DNA of 46,736 nt from Escherichia phage BEK6. Location of the stretch: sequence record MN158208.1; one strand, 5' to 3'. Positions within the stretch are counted from its first letter, which is position 1, and the number at the start of each line of letters is the position of its first letter. Both the position numbers and the translations under genes were made by a program. This document shows, piece by piece, positions 9,262 to 14,370 of the stretch. The notes beneath the pieces were generated by a model. The model did no database searches. It was not told where the DNA came from and saw only the letters and a program-made list of their open reading frames with translations.

Positions 9262-9652
9262 ATTATCTATAGCTGCCAGAAAATATGTTAATGATTTACT
9301 GGTGAACAAGTTCCCTGTCAGATATCCTATCTCTTGGGAAAACGTTGCTTTCACCCCTCCAGCAGACGGCTCTATCTGGCTAAAGTATGACTACATAGAG
9401 GTTGACACCGTAACCTACGGACTAAGCAGAAAGTGCAAATACTATGTAGGAATGGTGCAGGTTTCTGTTTTCTTCAGTCCAGGCACTGGCATTGATAAGC
9501 CTAGACAAATCGCTAATCAATTGGCAGAATCTATCGTTGATGGTACAATGCTTGACAGCGGGACCATTTACGAGTCTGGAGTTGTTAACCCGGTTATCAA
9601 ATCCAAGTCTGGGTGGTTTATCCCGGTTCATTTTTATGTTCGTCTAGACTAA
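9251..9652 (+). CDS. putative tail terminator / tail completion protein
   Basis: 133-aa ORF, GTG start with GAGGAGG RBS; position immediately upstream of the major tail gene. Confidence 0.4.
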   Translation: MHYELSIAARKYVNDLLVNKFPVRYPISWENVAFTPPADGSIWLKYDYIEVDTVTYGLSRKCKYYVGMVQVSVFFSPGTGIDKPRQIANQLAESIVDGTMLDSGTIYESGVVNPVIKSKSGWFIPVHFYVRLD

Positions 9653-9667
9653 CAAAAGGAAAAATAC

Positions 9668-10324
9668 ATGGCTCATTTATCAAATGGCACGCAGGTCTTC
9701 GTAGAAGGATCTCGCGGAACTGCAATTAACGTAACTGCAATCTCTAACGCAGATAAACCAGTTTTAACCGTATCTAGCGCATCTGACCTGGCTAAGGGTG
9801 ACTACCTTCTGTTTACCGCCTCCAGCTCAACCCTACTTAGCGACAAGCACGTGAGAGTAACTGAAGTTTCTGGCACTTCGGTAACAGTTGAAGGTATTGA
9901 TACCTCCAACACCACTAAGTTCCCTGCTGGCTTAACTGGTGAAGTTGTTAAGATTACTTCATGGTTCGAAGTCCCGTGTGTTCAGTACGTATCTACTGAC
10001 GGCGGCGAACAGCAGTTTGTTAACTTCCAGTGCCTTTCTGATGACCGCGAACAGCAGATTCCGACTTATAAATCTGCGGTAACAAACACCTTCACCTTTG
10101 CTCACGAGTACACCAACCCGGTCTATCCGGTTCTGCGTAAGTACGATGAGTCTGGCCAGGTTGTTGCAATTCGTCTGTTCGTACCTCGCGCTCAGGAAAT
10201 GCGTTTGCAGTCCGGCACTATCGCTTTCAACGACACCCCTACCATTGGTGTTAACGAAATCGAAACGGTATCCATCGCTGTATCCATTCGTGGCCGCCTG
10301 TCATCTGTGGCAGCTGAAGTTTAA
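9668..10324 (+). CDS. major tail protein
   Basis: 218-aa ORF with AAAAGGAAAAA RBS followed by a strong terminator (10331-10356); located before the chaperone/tape-measure genes. Confidence 0.6.
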   Translation: MAHLSNGTQVFVEGSRGTAINVTAISNADKPVLTVSSASDLAKGDYLLFTASSSTLLSDKHVRVTEVSGTSVTVEGIDTSNTTKFPAGLTGEVVKITSWFEVPCVQYVSTDGGEQQFVNFQCLSDDREQQIPTYKSAVTNTFTFAHEYTNPVYPVLRKYDESGQVVAIRLFVPRAQEMRLQSGTIAFNDTPTIGVNEIETVSIAVSIRGRLSSVAAEV

Positions 10325-10330
10325 AACACA

Positions 10331-10356
10331 AACCCTCTTCGGAGGGTTTTTTATTG
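10331..10356 (+). terminator. rho-independent terminator after the major tail gene
   Basis: CCCTC-ttcg-GAGGG followed by TTTTTTATT. Confidence 0.65.
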
Positions 10357-10357
10357 C

Positions 10358-10375
10358 ATAGCACTTTTTGATAAA
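10358..10375 (+). promoter_or_regulatory. gene-boundary palindrome copy (ATAGCACTTTTTGATAAA) with -10-like TATAGT 22 bp downstream
   Basis: TTGATA ends 10373, TATAGT 10396-10401, CATCGAAACGAAA 10407-10419, ATG 10435. Confidence 0.5.
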
Positions 10376-10434
10376 GCACTTATTCAGTTTTGCTGTATAG
10401 TTAACTCATCGAAACGAAATGGGGGAATTAAGAG

Positions 10435-10683
10435 ATGAATAACGTTAAAAACATTATCAAACTTACTGCGGTTCTGGTTGCTTTTTATGCGGTAGTTCAG
10501 ATTGTTAACCCAACTGGCGAGGCTGATGCAAATAGCAAGGCAAACAAATATACTGTTGAATTTTCCAAGGCTTATCGAGCATGTCAGGAGCTTGTGGGTG
10601 GTAAGGTTGACCAAATAATGAAATATGGCAAAGAGGTTTGTAAGGACTCAGCCGCTAAGATTGCAAAAGAAAACACTAAGTAA
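10435..10683 (+). CDS. small secreted/membrane protein (moron)
   Basis: 82-aa ORF with hydrophobic N-terminus (IIKLTAVLVAFYAVVQIV); preceded by its own palindrome / -10-like / CATCGAAACGAAA leader module. Confidence 0.5.
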   Translation: MNNVKNIIKLTAVLVAFYAVVQIVNPTGEADANSKANKYTVEFSKAYRACQELVGGKVDQIMKYGKEVCKDSAAKIAKENTK

Positions 10684-10721
10684 TAGAATACATACTCATA
10701 AACAATAAGGGGATCAACAAA

Positions 10722-11036
10722 ATGGCTAAATTCAAACTTTCACTGTCGGCACTTCCTGACTTTAAGCTGCCGGTAAAATTCAAGCTGGCTAACGACCAGG
10801 ATGTAGAGGTTATCTTTACAGTAAAGCATAAGAAAACATCTGAGCTTCAGGAATTGCTTAATAAAGAAGGACTGAGCACCAAAGAACTCATCATGGCAAT
10901 TGCTTCTGATTGGGATTTGGAGGAAGAATACAACGAGGATAACGTTAATGAGTTCTCCGACCTGTTCCCGGCCTCAACCGTTGCACTTACTACCGCTTAT
11001 ATGCAGGCACTGGCAGGCCAGCGGGTAAAAAACTAA
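10722..11036 (+). CDS. tail assembly chaperone (gpG-like)
   Basis: 104-aa acidic ORF directly upstream of the tape measure gene, ending at a slippery A_AAA_AAC. Confidence 0.6.
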   Translation: MAKFKLSLSALPDFKLPVKFKLANDQDVEVIFTVKHKKTSELQELLNKEGLSTKELIMAIASDWDLEEEYNEDNVNEFSDLFPASTVALTTAYMQALAGQRVKN

Positions 11037-11356
11037 AGAGGGCGGTGTATCTACAGTACCAGTCAGAGCCAACTGATGCCGAACTGGAAGCTATTGGGAT
11101 GCGCCGCTCTGATTACGAAGACGAAGAGCCTGAAGTTTTACACTTCGACGACAACATGATGAAGGCTTGGGACATTTATTGTTCAATGGCCACGCAATGG
11201 AGGGTTGGAGCTAACGGACCTACAGGGTTAGATTACAACGTGCTAAATTTCCTCTTTAGAGTGTATAATGTCTCAGAAGAAGAATTGGTGCTCAGTGATT
11301 TACGCATCCTTGAAGCTAAGGCTCTCGAGATGATGGATAATCTGAGAAAAAAATAA
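10722..11356 (+). CDS. tail assembly chaperone, predicted -1 frameshift product (gpGT-like)
   Basis: Heptamer A_AAA_AAC at 11027-11033 in the zero frame, 1 nt before the G stop; the -1 frame is open through 11356. Confidence 0.45.
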
Positions 11357-11376
11357 CCCGCTTCGGCGGGTTTTCT
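11356..11376 (+). terminator. hairpin + T-run before the tape measure gene
   Basis: ACCCGC-ttcg-GCGGGT followed by TTTTCT. Confidence 0.5.
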
Positions 11377-11391
11377 ATTATGGAGGCTTAG

Positions 11392-14370
11392 ATGGCAACA
11401 AATGAATTAGCCGGAATTACACTAGCCGTAGACGTCTCGCAGGTAGATAGAGGTACACAGTCCCTGCAGAAGTTCAGACAGGCAAACCAGCAGGCCGCTT
11501 CCGGCATTAGTGAGTTCGTCAACGCCGAGCAGGTTGCAAAGAATCAAGCCAGAGACACAGCTCGCGCACTTGCTGAACAGCAAGCATCTTTAGCTAAATT
11601 GCAAACAGCTATTGACCCAACTGCGGCAAAGTTCCGTAAGCTGCAAGAGGCAGCGGTAGGTCTTGATAAGGCATTCGCGGCTGGCGTGGTTCCTGATGAG
11701 GAGTTTTTCCGCTTAGGTGAGGCGCTTGAAACGCAGAGCGCAAAGCTTGCTCGCTCACGTGCGGCGCTAACTGAAGAGGGAAGGGCGGCGGCACAGGCTG
11801 CAAAGGATAAAGCAAAAGCAAAGGCTGAAGCTGATAGATTCATTGCATCACTTGAGCGTCAGGCTCAGGCGGCGACATTGACGAGAGAGGAGTACCTAAA
11901 GCTACAAGCGGCCCAGCTTGGAGTTAGTTCCCAGGCTGCGCCCATCATTGACAGAATCGCCGATGCATCACAGAAGGCAAACACCCAGCTAATTGCTCAA
12001 AGCAAGGCCTTTCAACGCTCTGGCTTAAGCGCAGGTCAATACAAGGCTGCAATCTCTCAATTGCCAGCGCAGATTACAGATATTGGGACATCACTTGCTG
12101 GCGGCATTCCGATTTGGCTTATTGCAATTCAGCAAGGCGGACAAATTAAGGATGCATTTGGAGGTATTGGTAACACATTTAGGTTTGCGCTTGCTGCTTT
12201 AAACCCGTTCAACGTAGCAGTTGGTGTTCTCGGTGGCGCTCTTGTTGCTTTAGGCGTCGGTGCTGCGCAGGCTGAAAGTGAATTCAGGGCGTTAAACTCT
12301 GCCATTGCGTTCTCAAACAACTCCACAATCGCATCAATCTCGCAGGTTAGAGAGTTGGTTAGCTCTGTTTCTGATGCTACTGGCGCAACCAGAGGGCTTG
12401 TGACTAGCATCGCAACAAGCCTTATTGAGCAAGGGAACCTTACACTGACGCAGATTGACAAGATTACCAAATCAACCGCCAGATGGGCGCAGTTGACAGG
12501 TAAGGATGCGAAGGAGATTACTGGTTACTATAACCAGATTGCAAGCGACCCAATCCAGGGTTTAGTTGACTTGGATAAGCGATTTAACTTCCTCACGCAG
12601 GGGCAATTGACGACAATCGAAAGATTGAGAGAGACTAGGGGTGAGGTTGAAGCTGTTACCGCCGCGATTGATATTTTCAGCAAGTCACAGGAAGCTAACC
12701 TTAACGACATAGCTGCGCAGTTAACTCCACTTGAGTTGGCCTGGAATGATTTTAGAAAGTACATCTCTGATATCTGGGATGCAATTAGTCGTAGAACGGT
12801 TGGGGCGCTGAACTTGTTTGTTGACGTAATAGCAGGAACAATTGAGCAAATCAGGGTCTTCCTTAACAGCGGTGACGTGCTGATTGGTGAATTCGTAATT
12901 AGCTCAATTCAGGCGTTGCAGAACATACCTGGTCTTGATGGTGTCGGTGATGACGTTATCAAGGCTCAGCGGGAGATTATCGATGCAGCTAAGAAGAATA
13001 ACCTTGAGCTAGAAAAGTCTATCAGGGAGCGAGACGCTAGAATAAGAAAAGGAGAAATGGGTTACGTTACTCGCAGAGAGAATCAGAATACCAATGAGCA
13101 GCCAGGCACGGATGAGGAGTTTGCAAAGAGGAAGAAGGCGCTTCAGGATGAGCTTGACGCGATTAAGAAGAACAGGAAAGAGGAAAATGGGAGGGTTAAG
13201 GAGCAAAGGGATTTAACAATTGGTTACGAATCTGGCGTGCTGGCACTTCAGGCTCAACTCAAGGTTCTTCAGGAAAATAGGGATATTGGCGCATTAATAA
13301 GTAATGAGCGCAAGCAGTATCTTCAAGAGGAGGCTAAATTCAGGATTCTTGAGCAGAGGCAACTTGATGGCTCAATTACCAAAGAGCAGGCAAGACTTCT
13401 CATTGAAAAGGATAAAGTTCTTGCACTCGCAAGTCAGAAAGCTGAGTTAGGCGATCAGATTGTTTTGCAGGAGCGTGCCAATAAGTTAGCTGAAGATAAC
13501 CGCAAAAAGATTCTTCAGATTAACAATGAGGCAAGCAATATTAATTTTGGGGCTGGCCTGTCTTCTCGGGAACAGCAGAGGGCAAGAGAGATCCAGGCTC
13601 TTCAGTCAAATCAGGTTAATGCTGGCGGCTCTCTTGATGATGTTGATTTCCAGCAGTTACTTGAAGCGAGAAAGGAATACTACAAGCAGGAGGATAATCT
13701 TAGGTCAGACTGGCAATCTGGTGTAACATCCACTCTCGCCGACTTGACAGAGAAATATACAGACTACAACCAGATTGCTAAGGACTTAACCGTTGCGGCA
13801 TTTGACGGGATTACAGAGCAAATTACAAACCTTGTAACCACTGGTGAGACGAACTTTAGGGAGTTCACAACAAGCATCCTGAAAATGATTGCGAAGATTG
13901 CAACTCAATTGCTTTTAGTTAAGGCCATCGAATCAACACTAACTAGTTTTGGTGGTGGTGGAGGTAACGCGTTTGGCTCATTTGCATCTGCTATGGGGTT
14001 CGCTGGCGGCGGCTACACTGGTGATGGTGGAAAATATCAGCCAGCAGGAACGGTACACCGTGGTGAGTTTGTATTCACAAAAGAAGCGACTAGCAGAATT
14101 GGCGTGAAAAACCTTTATGCGCTAATGAAGGGTTACGCAAACGGCGGTGCTGTTGGTGGTCCATCTGGTTATGCTAATGGCGGCTTGGTTTCTGGTGGGT
14201 CAAATGTTAATGTTAGTGGCATCACCGTTAACGTAAGCTCGGGTTTTGGTAGCGACCCAGAACAGGCTAAGGCATTGCAAAGTGGAGTCAAGGCTATCGT
14301 AGCGGAAGAGATTGCTCAGTCTTTCCAGCAGGGCGGCCGTGCGTATGCTTACCTTCGCGGATTCAACTAA
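11392..14370 (+). CDS. tail tape measure protein
   Basis: 992-aa ORF, GGAGG RBS, long Ala/Gln/Glu-rich coiled-coil regions and Gly-rich C-terminus; canonical position after G/GT. Confidence 0.85.
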   Translation: MATNELAGITLAVDVSQVDRGTQSLQKFRQANQQAASGISEFVNAEQVAKNQARDTARALAEQQASLAKLQTAIDPTAAKFRKLQEAAVGLDKAFAAGVVPDEEFFRLGEALETQSAKLARSRAALTEEGRAAAQAAKDKAKAKAEADRFIASLERQAQAATLTREEYLKLQAAQLGVSSQAAPIIDRIADASQKANTQLIAQSKAFQRSGLSAGQYKAAISQLPAQITDIGTSLAGGIPIWLIAIQQGGQIKDAFGGIGNTFRFALAALNPFNVAVGVLGGALVALGVGAAQAESEFRALNSAIAFSNNSTIASISQVRELVSSVSDATGATRGLVTSIATSLIEQGNLTLTQIDKITKSTARWAQLTGKDAKEITGYYNQIASDPIQGLVDLDKRFNFLTQGQLTTIERLRETRGEVEAVTAAIDIFSKSQEANLNDIAAQLTPLELAWNDFRKYISDIWDAISRRTVGALNLFVDVIAGTIEQIRVFLNSGDVLIGEFVISSIQALQNIPGLDGVGDDVIKAQREIIDAAKKNNLELEKSIRERDARIRKGEMGYVTRRENQNTNEQPGTDEEFAKRKKALQDELDAIKKNRKEENGRVKEQRDLTIGYESGVLALQAQLKVLQENRDIGALISNERKQYLQEEAKFRILEQRQLDGSITKEQARLLIEKDKVLALASQKAELGDQIVLQERANKLAEDNRKKILQINNEASNINFGAGLSSREQQRAREIQALQSNQVNAGGSLDDVDFQQLLEARKEYYKQEDNLRSDWQSGVTSTLADLTEKYTDYNQIAKDLTVAAFDGITEQITNLVTTGETNFREFTTSILKMIAKIATQLLLVKAIESTLTSFGGGGGNAFGSFASAMGFAGGGYTGDGGKYQPAGTVHRGEFVFTKEATSRIGVKNLYALMKGYANGGAVGGPSGYANGGLVSGGSNVNVSGITVNVSSGFGSDPEQAKALQSGVKAIVAEEIAQSFQQGGRAYAYLRGFN

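What the first reader, a model, noticed from the sequence alone, without database searches (positions are those of the whole stretch)
10722..11356. Programmed -1 frameshift site in the tail assembly chaperone pair
The G-like ORF ends ...CGG GTA AAA AAC TAA. The zero-frame heptamer A_AAA_AAC at 11027-11033 is a classic X_XXY_YYZ slippery site, and the -1 frame is open from there through 11356, which would yield a G-T-like fusion at the conserved position before the tape measure gene.
Basis: partly seen in the sequence, partly recalled or inferred. Interest (0 to 1): 0.45.

Follow-up and report, generated by a model that had tools for sequence, protein, structure and literature searches.

The report
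Tail chaperone G/GT programmed frameshift
This is the well-known "slip back one base" signal by which a T1/Rtp-like coliphage makes a short and a long version of its tail-assembly chaperone; it is real and strongly conserved, but ordinary and already annotated in a close relative.

Summary
ORF G (10722-11036, 104 aa, Pfam Phage_TAC_4) ends GTA AAA AAC TAA. The zero-frame heptamer A_AAA_AAC lies at 11027-11033. The -1 frame is open from 10952 to 11356 (DUF1799 "T" domain), just upstream of the tape measure gene (11392-14370).

Comparison with 74 distinct intact relatives supports a programmed -1 ribosomal frameshift giving G (11.75 kDa) and GT (211 aa, 24.29 kDa):
- T is always in the -1 frame.
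- The 7 nt abutting the G stop are slippery in all 74: X_XXY_YYZ in 59, A_AAR plus one codon in 15.
- The first heptamer base is always A even where the encoded residue differs (V/A/T/E).
- The 22 codons after the slip evolve as protein in the -1 frame: 65% of codon differences are synonymous, against about 5% in the other frames.
- A start codon at +11 exists only in the Rtpvirus clade.

The 80 nt just 3' of the site is the most stable predicted RNA fold of 9,332 windows on this strand; its stem begins 5 nt after the heptamer. No compensatory covariation supports it.

The same frameshift is annotated in phage OzMSK and noted in T1-like genome papers. This is a textbook lambda G/GT-type case of low interest.

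The parts
9668..10324 (+). Major tail (tube) protein gene, the upstream landmark of the G/T position
   Evidence: PF08813 Phage_tail_3 E=1e-67; phrog_584 major tail protein
10707..10713 (+). Shine-Dalgarno-like AAGGGGA, 8 nt before the G start codon
   Evidence: Read directly from the sequence
10722..11036 (+). Gene G: tail assembly chaperone, 104 aa, 11.75 kDa; the product of normal (0-frame) decoding
   Evidence: ORF list and translation; PF08748 Phage_TAC_4 E=7e-33; mass
11027..11033 (+). Slippery heptamer A_AAA_AAC (X_XXY_YYZ in the G frame), the -1 shift site
   Evidence: At this position 58 of 74 distinct relatives have A_AAA_AAC, 1 has G_GGA_AAC and 15 have A_AAR_Gxx. The first base is invariant although the residue it helps encode varies. 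In phage bob the -1 frame opens exactly at the heptamer.
11034..11036 (+). 0-frame TAA stop of G, directly abutting the heptamer
   Evidence: In all 74 intact relatives the 7 nt before the G stop are slippery.
11033..11356 (+). T segment read in the -1 frame after the slip (first codon CTA 11033-11035, stop TAA 11354-11356). GT = join(10722..11033, 11033..11356), 211 aa, 24.29 kDa
   Evidence: PF08809 DUF1799 E=2e-16. Protein-coding substitution pattern starts at the slip site.
11039..11110 (+). Predicted stimulatory RNA stem-loop. The lower stem has 14 bp: 11039-11052 (AGGGCGGUGUAUCU) pairs with 11097-11110 (GGAUGCGCCGCUCU). An upper stem follows. The structure starts 5 nt after the heptamer.
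   Evidence: MFE -35.3 kcal/mol, z=-4.3. The 80-nt window 11036-11115 ranks 1 of 9,332 on the + strand. Both arms are invariant in 8 distinct clade sequences, but there is no compensatory covariation.
11045..11047 (+). GTG in the T frame, used as the start of a separate 'T' ORF in most database records. It lies inside the 5' arm of the stem and only 3 nt after a GAGG.
   Evidence: It is a start codon only in the Rtpvirus clade (10 of 79 distinct junctions). Elsewhere the codon is GTA/GTT/GTC.
11355..11372 (+). Terminator-like hairpin AACCCGCTTCGGCGGGTT followed by a T-rich tail, overlapping the T stop and 20 nt before the tape measure start
   Evidence: T1's record annotates a rho-independent terminator at the equivalent place.
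11392..14370 (+). Tape measure protein gene (992 aa), the downstream landmark and presumed client of G/GT
   Evidence: PF06791 TMP_2 E=4e-49, PF09718 E=2e-16, phrog_24

Best explanation
This is a programmed -1 ribosomal frameshift of the lambda G/GT type. Most ribosomes translating G (10722-11036) terminate at TAA 11034 and release the 104-aa chaperone G.

A minority slip back one base on A_AAA_AAC (11027-11033). In that model tRNA-Lys re-pairs AAA to AAA and tRNA-Asn re-pairs AAC to AAA. The stable stem-loop beginning 5 nt downstream (11039-11110) is presumed to promote the slip, and the abutting stop codon may help. Those ribosomes continue with CTA 11033 in the -1 frame to 11356 and make the 211-aa fusion GT (...AGQRVKN-LKRAVYL...).

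The rest is by analogy with lambda and is not tested here. The shared G part would coat the tape measure protein, the T part would recruit the major tail protein, the fixed G:GT ratio would be set by slip efficiency, and neither protein would end up in the virion.

Shown here: the anatomy, the family assignments, the conservation of frame and motif, and the coding signal across the junction. Inferred: that slippage actually occurs, its efficiency, the role of the RNA structure and stop codon, and the protein functions.
For: 1. Anatomy is as described.
2. G is PF08748 and T is PF08809, lying between the major tail and tape measure genes. phrog_17368 covers G and T in one profile.
3. 79 distinct junctions were recovered from 109 related loci, and 74 are intact. 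All 74 have T of at least 95 codons in the -1 frame. The 7 nt before the G stop are A_AAA_AAC (58), G_GGA_AAC (1), A_AAA_GTY/GCC (10) or A_AAG_GTC (5).
4. There is a nucleotide-level constraint on the heptamer. The codon supplying its first base encodes V (41), A (30), T (1) or E (1), yet always ends in A. Asn is always AAC (59/59). By contrast the Arg codon one position upstream uses CGG/CGA/CGT/CGC 8/17/12/37 times.
5. In the 22 codons after the slip, 65% of codon differences are synonymous in the -1 frame, against 4.5% and 5.2% in the other frames. The third position varies in 21 of 22 codons, and LKRAVYL.YQ..PTD is conserved.
6. A start codon at +11 exists only in the Rtpvirus clade. Elsewhere the first start is at +50 to +149, and database 'T' ORFs are truncated accordingly.
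7. In Dhillonvirus phage bob the -1 frame opens only 7 nt before the G stop, which pins the shift to the heptamer.
8. Predicted RNA structure: z=-4.3 and rank 1 of 9,332 windows. Most lineages have a GC-rich stem 5-7 nt after the heptamer.
9. OzMSK annotates the joined frameshift CDS at the identical sequence.
10. Papers on the T1-like phages Stevie and Skenny note the conserved frameshift.
11. A_AAA_AAC shifts at more than 0.1% in E. coli without a stimulator and is used by IS elements.
Against: - There is no protein-level evidence for GT in this phage, and the literature searches found none for its clade.
- A_AAA_AAC is one of the less efficient heptamers in E. coli.
- The RNA structure has only thermodynamic support, with no compensatory covariation. 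It is not conserved across subfamilies, and the AHS24-like clade has none.
- In this clade a GTG with a GAGG-like sequence exists at +11, so some independent T synthesis cannot be excluded.
- The relatives are phylogenetically non-independent, so the counts overstate the number of independent observations.
Confidence: 0.9

Rival explanations
1. G and T are two separate genes with no frameshift. T (103 aa, 12.1 kDa) would be initiated independently at GTG 11045, or by termination-reinitiation after TAA 11034. Most GenBank records of relatives annotate it this way.
For: - GTG at 11045 lies in the T frame, 8 nt after the G stop, and is preceded by AGAGGG.
- Records for IME253, vB_EcoS_FP and AugustePiccard annotate two ORFs.
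- The OzMSK note says T 'also has independent RBS'.
Against: - Only 3 nt separate GAGG from GTG.
- Within the same clade AGAGGG is replaced by AACGAG, a synonymous Lys-Arg change, so the Shine-Dalgarno-like sequence is not conserved.
- GTG becomes GTA/GTT/GTC in all other clades, yet the four codons upstream of it (L-K/R-R-A) stay conserved as amino acids with synonymous changes.
- GTG and GAGG lie inside the 5' arm of the most stable stem in the genome.
- This model does not explain the invariant heptamer or the invariant third-position A.
Confidence: 0.05
2. The fusion arises by transcriptional slippage. RNA polymerase would add one extra A in the A6 run (11027-11032), giving an mRNA subpopulation in which G and T are in one frame (…VKK-LKRAV…).
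For: An A6 homopolymer is present. One added A gives the same frame change as a -1 ribosomal shift. Three database assemblies differ by one A at exactly this run.
Against: - From my own knowledge, efficient slippage by bacterial RNA polymerase needs runs of about 8-9 A/T, and A6 is short.
- Relatives with A_AAG_GTC, A_AAA_GTY or G_GGA_AAC have only 3-4 A's yet keep the same G/-1 T architecture.
- The phase of the motif relative to the G frame is conserved. That matters for tRNA re-pairing, not for polymerase slippage.
- A downstream stem at 5-7 nt is typical of ribosomal frameshift stimulators.
Confidence: 0.03
3. It is a chance coincidence: the heptamer is fortuitous and the downstream ORF is a non-functional or independently evolving remnant.
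For: In-frame X_XXY_YYZ heptamers occur at 0.3% per codon in this genome, so one in a 27-codon overlap has about an 8% prior chance.
Against: Motif, frame and position are conserved down to 23-28% G identity, including a Ralstonia phage and Dhillonvirus. There is strong purifying selection on T in the -1 frame. T has a Pfam domain hit.
Confidence: 0.01

Closest known systems
Phage lambda gpG / gpGT tail assembly chaperones (Levin, Hendrix & Casjens 1993; Xu, Hendrix & Duda 2004, 2013, 2014; as summarised in PMC5009743)
   Same: - Two ORFs lie between the major tail protein and tape measure genes.
- The second ORF is in the -1 frame and is reached through a heptameric slippery site near the end of G.
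- The outcome is a short and a long chaperone sharing the N-terminal part.
- The tape measure protein is of the lambda/N15 type (PF06791, PF09718).
   Different: - There is no detectable sequence similarity to lambda G or T, even profile against sequence (hhalign probability below 1%). The Pfam families also differ (Phage_TAC_4/DUF1799).
- The heptamer is A_AAA_AAC rather than lambda's G_GGA_AAG (lambda's site is from my own knowledge).
- The site abuts the G stop, so G and GT differ by no G residues.
- A very stable downstream stem is predicted here.
Orthologous G/GT pair of T1-like phages (Drexlerviridae): OzMSK CPTvBecoSOzMSK_030/031, T1 gp40/gp39, Stevie, Skenny
   Same: It is the same gene pair at the same position. 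The junction sequence is identical to OzMSK's, where a joined frameshift CDS is annotated. The frameshift is mentioned for Stevie and Skenny.
   Different: - The window's genome is only about 90-95% identical to any deposited phage.
- Most relatives' records, T1 included, annotate two separate and often truncated ORFs rather than the fusion.
- The predicted stimulatory stem differs between the Rtpvirus clade (long-range partner about 45 nt downstream) and T1/Tempevirinae (local GGGCGGUUU/AAACCGCC hairpin).
A_AAA_AAC -1 frameshift sites in bacterial insertion sequences
   Same: The heptamer is the same and operates in E. coli. Its intrinsic efficiency is low, yet it is biologically used.
   Different: The proteins and purpose are unrelated (transposase regulation versus tail assembly stoichiometry). 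According to Sharma et al. the proven A_AAA_AAC IS cluster has no established stimulator, whereas a strong stem is predicted here.

Membership tests
G/GT-type tail assembly chaperone frameshift (Xu, Hendrix & Duda 2004) | Two ORFs located between the major tail protein gene and the tape measure protein gene | tested here: met
   Major tail protein 9668-10324 (PF08813), G 10722-11036, T to 11356, tape measure 11392-14370 (PF06791). One extra small ORF (10435-10683) lies between the major tail gene and G.
G/GT-type tail assembly chaperone frameshift (Xu, Hendrix & Duda 2004) | The downstream ORF overlaps or abuts the upstream one in an alternative frame and lacks a conserved initiation site of its own | tested here: met
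   T is in the -1 frame in 74 of 74 distinct intact relatives. A start at +11 occurs only in the Rtpvirus clade (10 of 79 junctions), and its Shine-Dalgarno-like sequence is not conserved.
G/GT-type tail assembly chaperone frameshift (Xu, Hendrix & Duda 2004) | A slippery sequence in the overlap, conserved among relatives | tested here: met
   A_AAA_AAC at 11027-11033. Phage bob's 7-nt overlap pins the site.
G/GT-type tail assembly chaperone frameshift (Xu, Hendrix & Duda 2004) | Both G and GT are made in a fixed ratio, are required for tail assembly and are absent from virions | not testable with these tools
   This needs protein detection and genetics. The literature searches found no data for the Rtpvirus clade.
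Pfam PF08748 Phage_TAC_4 (tail assembly chaperone) and PF08809 DUF1799 | Score above Pfam's gathering threshold over the full domain | tested here: met
   G scores 114 bits against a cut-off of 21.1 (profile positions 1-124 of 124). T scores 60.5 bits against a cut-off of 26 (positions 1-80 of 80).
Lambda gpG / gpT protein families (sequence homologues) | Detectable sequence similarity to lambda G or T | tested here: not met
   hhalign of the 11-sequence GT alignment against lambda G and lambda T gives probability 0.2% and 0.5%. It works like lambda G/GT but is not a sequence-level member.
Canonical bacterial -1 PRF signal (heptamer + spacer + 3' structure) | X_XXY_YYZ heptamer in the 0 frame | tested here: met
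   A_AAA_AAC is in phase with G.
Canonical bacterial -1 PRF signal (heptamer + spacer + 3' structure) | Stable stem-loop or pseudoknot 5-9 nt downstream that is evolutionarily supported | tested here: inconclusive
   The stem starts 5 nt after the heptamer, with MFE -35.3 and z=-4.3, and ranks 1 of 9,332 windows. But no pair has compensatory changes, and different lineages have different or no stems.
Programmed transcriptional slippage | Long homopolymeric run (about 8-9 or more A/T in bacteria; from my own knowledge) conserved among relatives | tested here: not met
   The run here is A6. Relatives keep the architecture with A3-A4 or GGGAAA.

The most novel reading that the evidence does not exclude
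The most novel reading not excluded has three linked parts.
- In this family the slip site always abuts the G stop codon, and the slip may occur while the stop occupies the A site. That would be stop-assisted E/P-site slippage on a heptamer that is intrinsically poor in E. coli.
- The stimulatory RNA stem may have been repeatedly replaced: a long-range stem in Rtpvirus, a local hairpin in T1/Tempevirinae, another in Webervirus, and none in AHS24-like phages, which instead carry the highly shift-prone A_AAG.
- In the Rtpvirus clade the GTG at +11 may additionally yield free T, giving three products (G, GT, T) rather than two.
Probability: 0.15. Interest if true: 0.4.

Novelty: already known. 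Interest (0 to 1): 0.15.

Why it matters
The main value is for annotation. Most deposited relatives, including the T1 and IME253 RefSeq records and the BASEL phage AugustePiccard, list G and a separate and often truncated 'T' ORF, labelled 'hypothetical' or 'tail length tape measure protein'. The correct product is join(10722..11033, 11033..11356).

For frameshifting specialists the family offers a tidy natural series: the same site abutting a stop codon, heptamer and tetramer variants, and lineage-specific downstream stems. That series could be used to study how a weak E. coli heptamer is tuned. The phenomenon itself has been textbook knowledge since 1993-2004.

Tried and rejected
- Homology to lambda G and T by profile comparison: none found.
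- Solved structures by sequence profile: no hit at E<=1.
- Compensatory covariation for the predicted stems, within the Rtpvirus clade and within T1/Tempevirinae: none. There were only pair-preserving single changes (G-U to A-U) and a few broken pairs.
- An upstream Shine-Dalgarno-like stimulator of the dnaX type: considered and rejected by reading the alignments. The bases 5' of the heptamer (CGN GYA) vary freely.
- Other shift sites in the 82-nt overlap: rejected. G's C-terminus is conserved in the 0 frame up to the stop, and the overlap shrinks to 37-40 nt in some relatives and to 7 nt in phage bob.
- Xu et al. 2004 could not be read because it is not held. No paper on Rtpvirus frameshifting was found. 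One literature search failed on term length.
- Five apparent exceptions among the 79 junctions turned out to be assemblies with an A5 run or other indels, not a different architecture.
- The family assignment and prior annotation were already settled.

Full report
**Observation.**
- An ATG at 10722, preceded by AAGGGGA 8 nt upstream, opens a 104-codon ORF that ends CGG GTA AAA AAC TAA, with the stop at 11034-11036.
- In that frame the seven bases 11027-11033 read A_AAA_AAC, an X_XXY_YYZ heptamer.
- The -1 frame is open from 10952 to the TAA at 11354-11356. There is therefore no stop between 11027 and 11045, and the stated refutation criterion is not met.
- A slip after AAC re-reads base 11033 and continues CTA AAG AGG GCG GTG… The fusion is join(10722..11033, 11033..11356), 211 aa and 24.29 kDa, against 11.75 kDa for G alone.

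**Chance.** The window carries 40 in-frame X_XXY_YYZ heptamers in about 13,228 codons, or 0.3% per codon.
- One somewhere in the 27-codon overlap is therefore not rare, with roughly an 8% chance.
- This one is singular, though. It has by far the longest -1 extension (107 codons; the next is 47) and it directly abuts the stop codon.
- The real weight of the evidence comes from comparison with relatives.

**What the genes are.**
- The window is a T1-like coliphage of Drexlerviridae/Braunvirinae, close to Rtpvirus. The local region is 95.5% identical to vB_EcoS_FP, G is 99% identical to BASEL phage AugustePiccard, and the first 25 kb is about 90% identical to the nearest genome.
- G is Pfam Phage_TAC_4 (E=7e-33, full length) and T is DUF1799 (E=2e-16).
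- The upstream gene (9668-10324) is the tail tube protein. The downstream gene (11392-14370) is a lambda-type tape measure protein.
- One PHROG profile of 213 positions matches G at positions 1-107 and T at 113-210, consistent with deposited G-T fusion proteins of this family.

**Comparative evidence.** I collected 109 related loci with 79 distinct junction sequences, spanning 23-99% G identity. They cover Braunvirinae, Tunavirinae (T1), Tempevirinae, Webervirus, Sauletekiovirus, Dhillonvirus and a Ralstonia phage.
- Five junctions are assemblies with an A5 run or other indels. All 74 intact ones have T of at least 95 codons in the -1 frame.
- The seven bases before the G stop are A_AAA_AAC in 58 and G_GGA_AAC in 1. 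They are A_AAA_GTY/GCC in 10 and A_AAG_GTC in 5, that is, the shift-prone Lys tetramer A_AAR plus one codon.
- The clearest signature is at the nucleotide level. The codon supplying heptamer base 1 encodes Val (41), Ala (30), Thr (1) or Glu (1), yet always ends in A. Asn is always AAC. The Arg codon just upstream uses all four CGN codons freely, 8/17/12/37.
- Immediately after the slip, 22 codons encode a conserved LKRAVYL.YQ..PTD.EL..G. The third position varies in 21 of 22 codons. In the -1 frame 65% of codon differences are synonymous, against 4.5% and 5.2% in the other two frames.
- The GTG at 11045, which most records use as the 'T' start, is a start codon only in the Rtpvirus clade (10 of 79 junctions). 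Elsewhere it is GTA/GTT/GTC, and the first possible start lies 50-149 nt downstream. This is why T1 gp39 and similar ORFs are annotated as truncated stubs.
- In phage bob the -1 frame opens only 7 nt before the G stop, so the shift can only occur on the heptamer.
- In the fusion alignment, the segment straddling the junction (ALAGQR.KN|LKRAVYL) is among the most conserved.

**RNA structure.**
- Folding 11027-11130 gives a long stem-loop that starts 5 nt after the heptamer. The lower stem has 14 bp: 11039-11052 pairs with 11097-11110. MFE is -35.3 kcal/mol and z is -4.3.
- I folded every 80-nt window (step 5) on the + strand of the whole 46.7 kb. The window 11036-11115 is the single most stable of 9,332, at -34.8 against a mean of -14.8 (sd 4.8).
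- Both arms are invariant in eight distinct clade sequences. The only variation is in the loop and one G-U to A-U change. There is no compensatory covariation.
- Other lineages use different stems built on the same 5' arm GGGCGG: a local GGGCGGUUU/AAACCGCC hairpin in T1/Tempevirinae, GGGCUG/CAGCCU in Webervirus, and GGCGGCG/CGCCGCC in Dhillonvirus. The AHS24-like clade, with A_AAG_GTC, has none.
- The structure is therefore well placed and thermodynamically exceptional, but unproven.

**Mechanism.**
- The best explanation is a programmed -1 ribosomal frameshift of the lambda G/GT type (confidence 0.9).
- A_AAA_AAC is a weak heptamer in E. coli, but it shifts at more than 0.1% unaided and is used by IS elements. 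That fits the low GT:G ratio needed in lambda, where G:GT is about 30:1.
- The protein functions are inferred by analogy, not tested: G binding the tape measure protein, T recruiting the tube protein, and both proteins absent from virions.
- Rivals are independent initiation of T at GTG 11045 as the sole route (0.05), transcriptional slippage on A6 (0.03) and coincidence (0.01). Each fails to explain the phase-locked motif conservation and the coding signal upstream of the GTG. Some additional free T in the Rtpvirus clade cannot be excluded.

**Comparison with what is known.**
- It works like lambda gpG/gpGT, but it is not a sequence-level homologue of lambda G or T (hhalign probability below 1%).
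- It is the orthologue of the T1-like G/GT pair. Phage OzMSK, whose junction sequence is identical, already carries a joined CDS annotated as the frameshifted product of the tail assembly chaperone.
- The genome announcements for the T1-like phages Stevie and Skenny mention the conserved frameshift.
- The feature is therefore already known. What this work adds is a check that it is real here, the exact join, and some family-wide detail on the stop-abutting site, the tetramer variants and the turnover of the downstream stem.

**Verdict.** Novelty is 'already known' and interest is low (0.15).

Noticed in passing
window 10330-10349 and 11355-11372: Two terminator-like GC hairpins with T tails bracket the chaperone genes. 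One sits right after the major tail gene stop. The other overlaps the T stop, 20 nt before the tape measure start. T1's record annotates rho-independent terminators at the equivalent places. They may step down transcription from tube protein to chaperones to tape measure.
   Followed up: partly
window 11347-11353: A second in-frame slippery heptamer, A_AAA_AAA, abuts the stop of T (AGA AAA AAA TAA). Its -1 extension is only 12 codons. The tape measure gene is in that -1 frame, but a TAG at 11389-11391 blocks any T-TMP fusion. This is probably coincidental.
   Followed up: partly
window 10435-10683: An 82-aa ORF of unknown function (phrog_22925, E=4e-54, no Pfam hit) lies between the major tail gene and G. 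It is present in the Braunvirinae relatives (Rtp clade, TR2) but absent from T1 and the Tempevirinae loci examined.
   Followed up: no
L075, L093, L095 (IMG/VR contigs), at the slip site: Three assemblies have A5 instead of A6 at exactly the slippery run (…GTA AAA ACT AAA…), which puts T out of the -1 relationship. These are most likely homopolymer sequencing errors, but real length heterogeneity of the run was not excluded.
   Followed up: partly
L013-L017, L033-L038 (AHS24-like phages): This clade has replaced A_AAA_AAC with the non-canonical A_AAG_GTC and shows no predicted downstream stem (z about 0 to +0.7). Possibly the highly shift-prone A_AAG tetramer compensates for the missing stimulator.
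   Followed up: partly
database hits to window 9600-11500: Records named 'Campylobacter phage A110b/A143' and one 'Pseudomonas' phage are 92-94% identical to this T1-like coliphage region. This suggests mislabelled hosts or contaminating coliphages in those submissions.
   Followed up: no
window 1-25000: The nearest deposited genome (BEK1-1) is only about 90% identical over 91% of the first 25 kb. The window probably represents an undescribed species-level lineage within the Rtp-like Braunvirinae.
   Followed up: no
T1 NC_005833 ST39; DanielBernoulli bas08_0016; K50_evo17 gene 16; P-K7R gene 41; tuinn and damhaus (no T gene called): In many relatives the T reading frame is annotated as a truncated 55-65 aa ORF starting 120-150 nt after G, or is not called at all, and G/T are labelled 'tail length tape measure protein'. 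These are systematic annotation errors that the frameshift join would fix.
   Followed up: yes
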